In this document: positions 4,949 through 5,081 of the stretch, one piece after another
How positions within the stretch are numbered: position 1 is the first letter of the stretch
Layout: each line of letters opens with the position of its first letter
Assembly: GCF_024502345.1 (NCBI RefSeq)
Contig: NZ_JALDNN010000001.1
From: Escherichia coli
GTDB lineage: Bacteria > Pseudomonadota > Gammaproteobacteria > Enterobacterales > Enterobacteriaceae
Direction: 5' to 3' (one strand)
Length of the DNA: 64,000 bases
Made by a program: the position numbers and the translations under genes
The notes under the pieces: generated by a model
What the model was told of the DNA's origin: nothing
What the model saw: the letters and a program-made list of their open reading frames with translations, nothing else
The model's database searches: none

Positions 4949-4973
4949 GATGCTCTCCCAAATATGAAATCTC

Positions 4974-4999
4974 TTGCTGGCATTACAAGAATCATGCCA
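4974..4999 (-). promoter_or_regulatory. Sigma-54 (-24/-12) promoter upstream of pspG
   Basis: Minus strand reads TGGCATGATTCTTGTAAT, close to TGGCAC-N5-TTGCA, about 30-50 bp upstream of the pspG start. Confidence 0.6.
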
Positions 5000-5081
5000 A
5001 AAATAATCTATTGATTTAACAGCAAAAAGCCCCGCGACGGTGCGCAGGGCGTGGTGAATTTGACTACTTTTTGGTGAAAAG

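What the first reader, a model, noticed from the sequence alone, without database searches (positions are those of the whole stretch)
4949..5081. Sigma-54 promoter and upstream region of pspG
A close match to the -24/-12 consensus (TGGCAT-N5-TTGTA) lies just upstream of pspG, with about 80 bp of further upstream sequence that could hold enhancer (PspF) and IHF sites. This is consistent with pspG belonging to the phage-shock regulon despite being unlinked from pspABCDE.
Basis: partly seen in the sequence, partly recalled or inferred. Interest (0 to 1): 0.25.

Follow-up and report, generated by a model that had tools for sequence, protein, structure and literature searches.

The report
Known sigma-54 promoter of pspG

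Summary
The window is E. coli chromosome. Coordinates 4949-5081 are exactly the gap between the dusA stop codon and the pspG start codon, both genes on the minus strand. On that strand TTGGCATGATTCTTGTA (5000..4984) is the best sigma-54 match in all 64 kb. It is letter-for-letter the pspG site bound by sigma-54 in published ChIP-seq and listed as experimentally confirmed in EcoCyc. I fetched 45 pspG loci, from Escherichia to Yersinia, Serratia and Brenneria, and all carry the same motif upstream of pspG.

The 82 bases upstream of the motif hold three further elements:
- an exact IHF core, AATCAATAGATTA (5016..5004);
- the dusA intrinsic terminator (stem-loop 5050..5029 plus a T-run), supported by compensatory base changes;
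- a conserved 29-bp module (5078..5050). A matrix built from its non-Escherichia copies finds the enhancer region between pspF and pspA in E. coli (22 bits, 0 of 1000 shuffles).

Between clades, the enhancer-to-promoter and IHF-to-promoter distances change in steps of about one helical turn.

Both the observation and the interpretation are correct. The promoter has been known since Lloyd et al. 2004. The only small additions here are the terminator sitting inside the enhancer-promoter loop and the shared half-site layout with pspA. Interest is low.

The parts
4706..4948 (-). pspG coding sequence (80 aa, ATG at 4948, stop codon 4708..4706), the gene the promoter drives
   Evidence: ORF and translation. 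RefSeq annotates it as 'envelope stress response protein PspG' in matching genomes. One residue differs from K-12 (F7 against I7).
4953..4959 (-). Shine-Dalgarno sequence GGGAGAG, 4 nt before the ATG
   Evidence: Read directly from the sequence. GGGAGAG is kept in most of the Enterobacteriaceae loci, visible in the anchored view.
4973..4973 (-). Predicted transcription start (+1), giving a 25-nt leader. Predicted, not mapped here.
   Evidence: Follows the rule of Bonocora et al.: 19 bp downstream of the motif centre (4992). That paper gives a distance of 25 nt to pspG.
4984..5000 (-). Sigma-54 promoter TTGGCATGATTCTTGTA. GG is at -25/-24 (4998, 4997) and GT at -13/-12 (4986, 4985).
   Evidence: the only pattern match and the top matrix score in the window. 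Identical to ChIP-seq site OS40. Present in 45 of 45 orthologous loci. The core positions are invariant in the 35-sequence alignment.
5004..5016 (-). IHF core AATCAATAGATTA, an exact WATCAANNNNTTR, at -31 to -43
   Evidence: One of 7 exact matches in the window, against 2.4 expected. The CA of the ATCAA core and the last TA of the TTA are invariant in the alignment. 25 of the 46 sequences have an exact core at a fixed distance from the promoter, 16-17 bp or 26-27 bp.
5024..5050 (-). dusA intrinsic terminator: stem-loop GCCCTGCG-CACCGT-CGCGGGGC (5050..5029) followed by TTTTT (5028..5024). It lies between the enhancer and the IHF site (-51 to -77).
   Evidence: Terminator scan: 8 pairs, 7 of them G-C. 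Covariation across 35 sequences: 97.5% of cells paired, 6 of 8 pairs with changes on both sides, 0 of 500 shuffles as good, and slid controls at 39-64% paired.
5050..5078 (-). PspF enhancer (UAS) module TTCACCAAAAAGTAGTCAAATTCACCACG at -77 to -105. It has three half-site-like repeats (TTCACCA, inverted GTAGTCAA, TTCACCAC) and starts 3 nt after the dusA stop codon.
   Evidence: Conserved block in the alignment and in distant genera. A matrix from the non-Escherichia copies scores 36.7 bits here against 5.0 for the next hit in the window. It finds L001 421-449 in the E. coli pspF-pspA gap at 22.2 bits, 0 of 1000 shuffles. PspF binding itself was not tested here.
5082..6125 (-). dusA coding sequence (stop codon TAA 5084..5082), the upstream neighbour whose terminator is embedded in the pspG control region
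   Evidence: ORF; RefSeq annotation as tRNA dihydrouridine synthase DusA.

Best explanation
This is the enhancer-dependent sigma-54 promoter of pspG, complete within the 133-bp dusA-pspG gap.

Mechanism:
1. RNA polymerase with sigma-54 binds TTGGCATGATTCTTGTA (5000..4984, minus strand) as a closed complex that cannot open by itself.
2. The AAA+ activator PspF binds the 29-bp module at 5078..5050, about 77-105 bp upstream of the predicted start.
3. IHF binds AATCAATAGATTA (5016..5004) and bends the DNA, so that bound PspF touches the closed complex and uses ATP to open it.
4. Transcription then starts near 4973 and yields a short-leader pspG mRNA.
5. Under membrane stress PspA releases PspF, so pspG is induced together with pspABCDE although it is unlinked.
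6. The dusA intrinsic terminator (5050..5024) lies inside the enhancer-promoter loop. It stops dusA transcripts before pspG and leaves pspG dependent on sigma-54 and PspF.

What is shown here: the motifs, their conservation, their spacing, and the hairpin covariation. What is taken from the literature: sigma-54 occupancy, PspF dependence and induction. What is inferred: the exact start site, the protein contacts, and the insulating role of the terminator.
For: - Motif presence and rank.
- Identity to the published sigma-54 ChIP-seq site OS40, flagged as confirmed in EcoCyc, with pspG up-regulated on sigma-54 overexpression.
- The Salmonella orthologous site is sigma-54 bound.
- In all 45 orthologous loci the best sigma-54 hit upstream of pspG scores 10-19 bits. 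40 of the 45 keep the unusual T at -12 (TTGT), which pspA also has.
- The enhancer module is unique in the window and picks out the pspF-pspA enhancer region at 22.2 bits (0 of 1000 shuffles). A matrix from only the 10 distant genera still does so (15.2 bits, 4 of 1000).
- The IHF core is exact and positionally conserved.
- Enhancer-to-promoter distance is 68-70 bp in Enterobacteriaceae, 77-79 in Brenneria, Serratia and Prodigiosinella, and 90 in Yersinia and Rahnella. The IHF core is at 16-17 or 26-27 bp. These are steps of about one helical turn, as expected if the face of the helix matters.
- Terminator scan and covariation.
- No sigma-70-like promoter on the pspG strand in 4600-5300.
Against: - No experiment can be run here, and the primary paper (Lloyd et al. 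2004, J Biol Chem 279:55707) is not in the held library. The exact published footprints and start site could not be compared with my coordinates.
- The start at 4973 is a rule-based prediction.
- The enhancer sits 13 bp closer to the promoter than in pspA (-105..-77 against -118..-90). That is not a whole number of helical turns, so the two promoters are not simply superimposable.
- Enterobacter species have a degraded IHF core.
- One locus (C. werkmanii, L020) has TTGTCA in place of TTGGCA.
- Folding the single sequence gives no significant z-score (-0.61). The terminator rests on covariation and its shape.
Confidence: 0.95

Rival explanations
1. The motif is a sigma-54 binding site that never fires. 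Many E. coli sigma-54 sites are bound but transcriptionally silent, and pspG would then be expressed from another promoter.
For: Bonocora et al. stress that they map binding sites, not promoters, and that sigma-54 typically binds as part of a transcriptionally inactive holoenzyme.
Against: The site is intergenic, in the sense orientation and 25 nt from the gene. It is marked as experimentally confirmed, and pspG was among only 5 genes with an intergenic sigma-54 site upstream that were up-regulated on sigma-54 overexpression. It comes with a conserved enhancer and IHF site at helically phased distances. No sigma-70-like promoter lies on this strand.
Confidence: 0.02
2. pspG is mainly co-transcribed with dusA by read-through, and the intergenic conservation reflects dusA 3' end signals rather than a separate promoter.
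For: The genes are on the same strand and only 133 bp apart. The window's terminator has a clean T5 run, but K-12 has GTTTT, so some read-through is conceivable.
Against: A GC-rich 8-bp hairpin with a T-run lies between the two genes and is maintained by compensatory changes. In Yersinia, Rahnella and Brenneria roseae the upstream sequence is unrelated to that of the Enterobacteriaceae and lacks the GC-rich hairpin, yet the enhancer, IHF core and promoter persist; the upstream gene in those loci was not identified. The conserved blocks match the sigma-54, IHF and pspA-enhancer motifs.
Confidence: 0.02
3. The conserved 29-bp module is not the PspF site. It could be the dusA 3' UTR or the site of another regulator, with the real PspF site elsewhere, for example inside the dusA 3' end.
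For: PspF binding was not tested here. The literature speaks of 'one UAS' at pspG without giving coordinates I could read.
Against: A matrix trained only on pspG loci finds the region just upstream of the pspF start codon in the pspF-pspA gap (L001 411-449, both strands), and nothing else in 64 kb. That region is where PspF is reported to bind in order to activate pspA and repress pspF. The module keeps helical phasing with the promoter across clades.
Confidence: 0.05

Closest known systems
E. coli K-12 pspG promoter (pspGp; Lloyd et al. 2004; sigma-54 ChIP-seq site OS40 of Bonocora et al. 2015)
   Same: It is the same locus. The 17-mer is identical, and the whole dusA-pspG gap is identical to MG1655 except for one base.
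   Different: Window 5028 is T where K-12 has G, the first base after the terminator stem. This gives TTTTT instead of GTTTT. PspG has F7 instead of I7. Neither difference touches the promoter, the IHF core or the enhancer.
E. coli pspA promoter (pspF-pspA divergent control region)
   Same: Both are sigma-54 promoters with the same atypical TTGTA -12 element (TTGGCACGCAAATTGTA). Both have an IHF-type site between enhancer and promoter. Both share an enhancer core of three half-sites: TTCGCCAC-tt-GTTAGTG-taa-TTCGCTAAC in pspA against TTCACCAA-aa-GTAGTC-aaa-TTCACCAC here.
   Different: The pspA enhancer is 13 bp further upstream (-118..-90) and has an extra overlapping match on the other strand (L001 411-439, 17.1 bits). 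That fits the published 'two UAS' for pspA against 'one UAS' for pspG, and 100-fold against 20-fold induction. In pspA the enhancer doubles as the pspF autoregulation site. In pspG it abuts the dusA stop codon, and a terminator lies within the loop.
Salmonella Typhimurium pspG (STM4244) sigma-54 promoter
   Same: It is the orthologous promoter. TGGCATGATTTTTGTAAG was enriched 39-fold in sigma-54 ChIP-chip.
   Different: One spacer base differs. The S. enterica subsp. arizonae and diarizonae loci fetched here carry an extra insert of about 34 nt in the leader.
Generic IHF-assisted sigma-54 promoters (glnHp2, nifH, Pu)
   Same: The layout is enhancer, IHF bend, then the -24/-12 promoter (general description in PMC2709558).
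   Different: This one is unusually compact. Everything, including a neighbour's terminator, fits within 105 bp upstream of the start, and the IHF core ends only 3 bp from the 17-mer.

Membership tests
Sigma-54 (RpoN) dependent promoter | GG at -24 and GC (or a close variant) at -12, with exactly the canonical spacing (TGGCAC-N5-TTGCW) | tested here: met
   TGGCAT-GATTC-TTGTA at 4999..4984. It scores 17.2 bits on a matrix built from 41 other ChIP-seq sites, the top score in the window. It departs from the consensus at two positions: T for C after GGCA, and T for C at -12. pspA shares the second departure.
Sigma-54 (RpoN) dependent promoter | Sense orientation, a short distance upstream of a gene | tested here: met
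   Same strand as pspG. The motif ends 35 nt before the ATG, and the predicted leader is 25 nt.
Sigma-54 (RpoN) dependent promoter | Occupied by sigma-54 holoenzyme in vivo, with transcription dependent on rpoN | not testable with these tools
   Literature only: ChIP-seq FAT score of 15 at the identical K-12 sequence, confirmed status in EcoCyc, and up-regulation on sigma-54 overexpression.
Sigma-54 (RpoN) dependent promoter | Transcription start about 11-13 nt downstream of the -12 element | not testable with these tools
   Only a rule-based prediction (4973) is available. The primary paper is not held.
PspF regulon (enhancer-dependent psp promoters) | An upstream activating sequence of the pspA type, about 80-130 bp upstream of the start | tested here: met
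   The module at 5078..5050 lies at -105..-77. A matrix from the non-Escherichia pspG loci finds the pspF-pspA enhancer region at 22.2 bits, 0 of 1000 shuffles, and no other site in the window scores above 5 bits.
PspF regulon (enhancer-dependent psp promoters) | IHF site between the enhancer and the promoter | tested here: met
   An exact WATCAANNNNTTR at 5016..5004. Its core bases are invariant and its distance from the promoter is fixed or shifts by one helical turn. IHF binding itself was not tested.
PspF regulon (enhancer-dependent psp promoters) | PspF-dependent induction by membrane stress (secretin pIV and similar), with negative control by PspA | not testable with these tools
   Literature: pspG is part of the PspF regulon, has one UAS and is about 20-fold induced.
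Rho-independent (intrinsic) terminator, for dusA | GC-rich stem-loop followed directly by a U-run, downstream of a stop codon, with the structure conserved | tested here: met
   8-bp stem with 7 G-C pairs, a 6-nt loop, then TTTTT, starting 31 nt after the dusA stop codon. 97.5% of cells are paired, and 6 of 8 pairs show compensatory changes. Termination itself was not measured.

The most novel reading that the evidence does not exclude
The most novel reading that remains open has three parts. First, the dusA terminator is a functional part of the promoter architecture, not just a neighbour. It would act as a conserved, GC-rich, roughly 27-bp spacer that sets enhancer-promoter phasing and insulates pspG from read-through. 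Second, PspF bound 3 nt after the dusA stop codon might influence dusA 3' end formation. Third, the pspG 'single UAS' would actually share the full three-half-site core of the pspA enhancer. I could not check whether these details are already in Lloyd et al. 2004.
Probability: 0.25. Interest if true: 0.2.

Novelty: already known. Interest (0 to 1): 0.08.

Why it matters
It matters little beyond annotation. The promoter explains how an unlinked gene joins the phage-shock (membrane stress) regulon, and that has been established for two decades.

The comparative analysis adds base-level coordinates for the enhancer, the IHF core and the embedded dusA terminator. It also gives a cross-genus consensus for the PspF site and evidence that enhancer-promoter spacing changes in whole helical turns. 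These points are useful for regulon prediction in other Enterobacterales and as a compact natural sigma-54 part, but none would surprise a specialist.

Tried and rejected
- The primary paper (Lloyd et al. 2004, doi 10.1074/jbc.M408994200) is not in the library. Its footprints and start site could not be compared with my coordinates. What I recall of its abstract is memory only: sigma-54 driven, activated by PspF and IHF, negatively regulated by PspA.
- No supplementary files are held for the IHF ChIP study PMC3333857, so I have no in vivo IHF evidence for this site.
- A search for published coordinates of pspA UAS I and UAS II found nothing usable.
- The sigma-70 promoter scan of 4600-5300 found two weak hits on the plus strand only and none on the pspG strand. 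I rejected a sigma-70 promoter as an alternative.
- The other sigma-54-like matrix hits in the window score 14.1 bits or less, for example 24393-24409 inside a 519-aa ORF. The four I looked up do not appear in the text of the ChIP-seq paper, so I treat them as chance.
- Folding the terminator region as a single sequence gave an unremarkable z-score of -0.61. The case for the structure rests on covariation.
- Rfam has no family in 4500-5200.
- I looked by eye, without a formal test, for a fourth half-site inside the dusA 3' end that would complete a second dyad as in pspA. I saw no convincing match.

Full report
**Where we are.** The window is E. coli chromosome. The ORFs around the finding are dnaB (2059-3474, -), qor (about 3555-4540, +), pspG (4706-4948, -) and dusA (5082-6125, -). 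A 701-base query across the finding matches 5,425 of 5,426 complete E. coli genomes at 95-100% identity, and the features under the match are annotated pspG and dusA. Compared with K-12 MG1655, this gap differs at a single base: window 5028 is T where K-12 has G.

**The observation.** On the minus strand the sequence reads TTGGCATGATTCTTGTA at 5000..4984.
- The degenerate pattern TGGCAYN5TTGYW occurs once in the 64 kb, here. With 0.42 expected and 31 of 100 shuffles giving at least one match, the pattern alone is not rare at window scale.
- I built a 17-nt matrix from the 41 other intergenic sense sites of a published E. coli sigma-54 ChIP-seq table, leaving pspG out. It ranks this site first of all positions on both strands (17.2 bits; the next is 14.1). 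12 of 200 shuffles reach that score anywhere.
- The strength of the case comes from placement. The site is on the correct strand, inside a 133-bp gap, and ends 35 nt before the pspG ATG.

**It is a known, experimentally supported site.** Bonocora et al. 2015 (PMC4591121) list site OS40 with the motif TTGGCATGATTCTTGTA upstream of b4050 pspG. The predicted start is 25 nt from the gene, and the site carries the flag C, meaning experimentally confirmed in EcoCyc. In the same paper pspG is one of five genes with an intergenic site upstream that rise on sigma-54 overexpression, attributed to PspF. In Salmonella Typhimurium the orthologous TGGCATGATTTTTGTAAG upstream of STM4244 pspG was enriched 39-fold in sigma-54 ChIP-chip (PMC3844500). 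Mehta et al. 2013 (PMC3709507) state that PspF binds the UAS of the pspA and pspG promoters. They also state that pspG has one UAS and is 20-fold induced, against two UAS and 100-fold for pspA, and that deleting the pspG promoter changes PspF dynamics and raises basal pspA expression. Huvet et al. (PMC3041696) say the same about PspF binding at both promoters. The original description (Lloyd et al. 2004, J Biol Chem 279:55707) is cited by all of these but is not held in the library.

**Independent comparative evidence.** A scan of one genome per species with the PspG protein returned 45 loci. They come from Escherichia, Citrobacter, Salmonella, Enterobacter, Lelliottia, Silvania, Yersinia, Rahnella, Serratia, Brenneria, Prodigiosinella and a Pantoea.
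- In every locus the best sigma-54 matrix hit in the 300 bp upstream of pspG is of the same type (10-19 bits). 40 of the 45 keep TTGT rather than the consensus TTGC at -12. E. coli pspA has the same peculiarity (TTGGCACGCAAATTGTA).
- In a 35-sequence alignment of the Enterobacteriaceae, the invariant columns cluster in three blocks. These are the promoter (4999-4986), the ATCAA...TTA of an IHF core (5013, 5012, 5005, 5004) and a block right after the dusA stop codon (5077-5052).
- The first 12 bases after the promoter are poorly conserved, so the blocks are not simply a sign of low divergence.

**The IHF site.** AATCAATAGATTA at 5016..5004 is an exact match to WATCAANNNNTTR. It is one of seven in the window, against 2.4 expected. 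An exact core sits at the same distance from the promoter in 25 of the 46 sequences, and most of the others have one-mismatch versions. Enterobacter species have a degraded core.

**The enhancer.** The block TTCACCAAAAAGTAGTCAAATTCACCACG (5078..5050) recurs in all genera. It takes forms such as TTCACCAAAAGTTAGTCAATTTCACCAC in Citrobacter and GACTAACTGTTAGTCGTTTTGACTAAC in Brenneria. The layout is three half-sites, direct, inverted, direct, about 10 bp apart.
- A 29-nt matrix built only from the non-Escherichia copies scores 36.7 bits here, and the next hit in the window scores 5.0.
- In the 901-bp E. coli pspF-pspA region the same matrix finds TTCGCCACTTGTTAGTGTAATTCGCTAAC (L001 421-449) at 22.2 bits, with 0 of 1000 shuffles as good. 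There is a second overlapping match on the other strand at 411-439 (17.1 bits).
- A matrix from the ten distant genera alone still finds the same place (15.2 bits, 4 of 1000 shuffles).
- That place lies directly upstream of the pspF start codon (L001 413). PspF is reported to bind the pspA enhancer there, both to activate pspA and to repress pspF.
- With the starts predicted by the same rule, the module lies at -105..-77 for pspG and -118..-90 for pspA. The extra overlapping match in pspA fits the published 'two UAS against one'.

**Spacing.** The distance from the central half-site to the promoter 17-mer is 68-70 bp in the Enterobacteriaceae, 77-79 bp in Brenneria, Serratia and Prodigiosinella, and 90 bp in Yersinia and Rahnella. 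The IHF core lies 16-17 bp or 26-27 bp from the 17-mer. Changes in steps of about 10-11 bp are what one expects if the activator, the IHF bend and the polymerase must stay on set faces of the helix. This is inference from the sequences.

**A terminator inside the loop.** Between the enhancer and the IHF core lies GCCCTGCG-CACCGT-CGCGGGGC followed by TTTTT (5050..5024). The simple scan reports it as a terminator on the minus strand. Across the 35 aligned sequences, 97.5% of cells pair and 6 of the 8 pairs show changes on both sides. No shuffle out of 500 does as well, and sliding the partner drops pairing to 39-64%. Folding the single sequence is not significant by itself (z = -0.61). The hairpin starts 31 nt after the dusA stop codon and is best read as the dusA intrinsic terminator. 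Its position means that dusA transcripts should end before the pspG promoter, which is consistent with pspG depending on sigma-54 and PspF. No sigma-70-like promoter was found on this strand. In Yersinia, Rahnella and Brenneria roseae the upstream sequence is unrelated to that of the Enterobacteriaceae and lacks this hairpin, yet the enhancer, IHF core and promoter persist; I did not identify the upstream gene in those loci.

**Mechanism.**
1. Sigma-54 holoenzyme forms a closed complex at 5000..4984.
2. PspF binds 5078..5050.
3. IHF at 5016..5004 bends the roughly 60 bp between them.
4. PspF uses ATP to open the complex.
5. Transcription starts near 4973, giving a 25-nt leader with the Shine-Dalgarno sequence GGGAGAG (4959..4953).
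6. PspA holds PspF inactive until membrane stress.

The motifs, their conservation, the spacing and the hairpin covariation are shown here. Sigma-54 occupancy, PspF dependence and fold induction come from the cited papers. The start site, the contacts and the insulating role of the terminator are inferred.

**Comparison and novelty.** This is the K-12 pspG promoter itself, not a relative of it. It works like the pspA promoter and shares its enhancer motif and its atypical -12 element. It differs in being more compact, in having fewer half-sites, and in hosting a neighbour's terminator. The finding is already known.

**Residual uncertainty.** It concerns only details I could not check against the primary paper: the exact footprints and the mapped start.

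Noticed in passing
window about 4539-4649 (-), downstream of pspG: K-12 RefSeq annotates a small RNA, PspH (b4758), starting 57 nt after the pspG stop codon. The sequence is identical in the window as far as it was aligned. It runs into a hairpin and T-run at about 4540-4580, at the end of the convergent qor gene. Melamed et al. 2016 describe PspH as a sponge of the sRNA Spf that may have its own promoter. Whether the sigma-54 promoter also feeds it was not examined.
   Followed up: partly
L010 about 1432-1500 and L021 about 1433-1500 (Salmonella enterica subsp. arizonae and diarizonae): These two loci have 68-69 nt between the sigma-54 motif and the pspG ATG, against 35 nt in E. coli. The extra part contains a GC-rich palindromic, REP-like stretch (GTAGACCCGGTAAGCGC...GCCGGGCAA) inside the leader.
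   Followed up: no
L035-L045 against L002-L034 (upstream of pspG): Enhancer-to-promoter distance comes in classes of 68-70, 77-79 and 90 bp, and the IHF-to-promoter distance in classes of 16-17 and 26-27 bp, by clade. These are steps of about one helical turn. In Brenneria the IHF core is embedded in a longer inverted repeat (for example CGCTGATAAATCAATAAGTTATCAGCG) that the Enterobacteriaceae lack.
   Followed up: partly
window 24393-24409 (+): This is the second-best sigma-54 matrix hit in the window, CTGGCATGTCTGGTGCA (14.1 bits), inside a 519-aa ORF (23475-25034). It does not appear in the text of the published ChIP-seq paper, so it is probably chance.
   Followed up: partly
window 5028 and 4928-4930: The window shows two differences from K-12 MG1655 in the aligned 513 bases. 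There is a T instead of a G directly after the terminator stem, which gives a cleaner T5 run. PspG residue 7 is Phe instead of Ile.
   Followed up: yes
window 54878-59886 (-), 35057-35253 (+), 18394-18464, 23400-23470, 33071-33141, 49927-50004 (-), 32856-33005 (+): The Rfam scan of the whole window finds a complete rRNA operon (16S, tRNA, 23S, 5S), a lysine riboswitch, four naRNA4 (REP-type) elements and the sRNA STnc430. None bears on the finding.
   Followed up: no
window 6482-7467 (-): Upstream of dusA lie two ORFs (246 aa and 69 aa) whose products look Asn-, Lys- and Asp-rich and of low complexity. I took this for AT-rich DNA but did not measure composition. From memory they resemble the K-12 yjbM and yjbL genes; this was not checked.
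   Followed up: no
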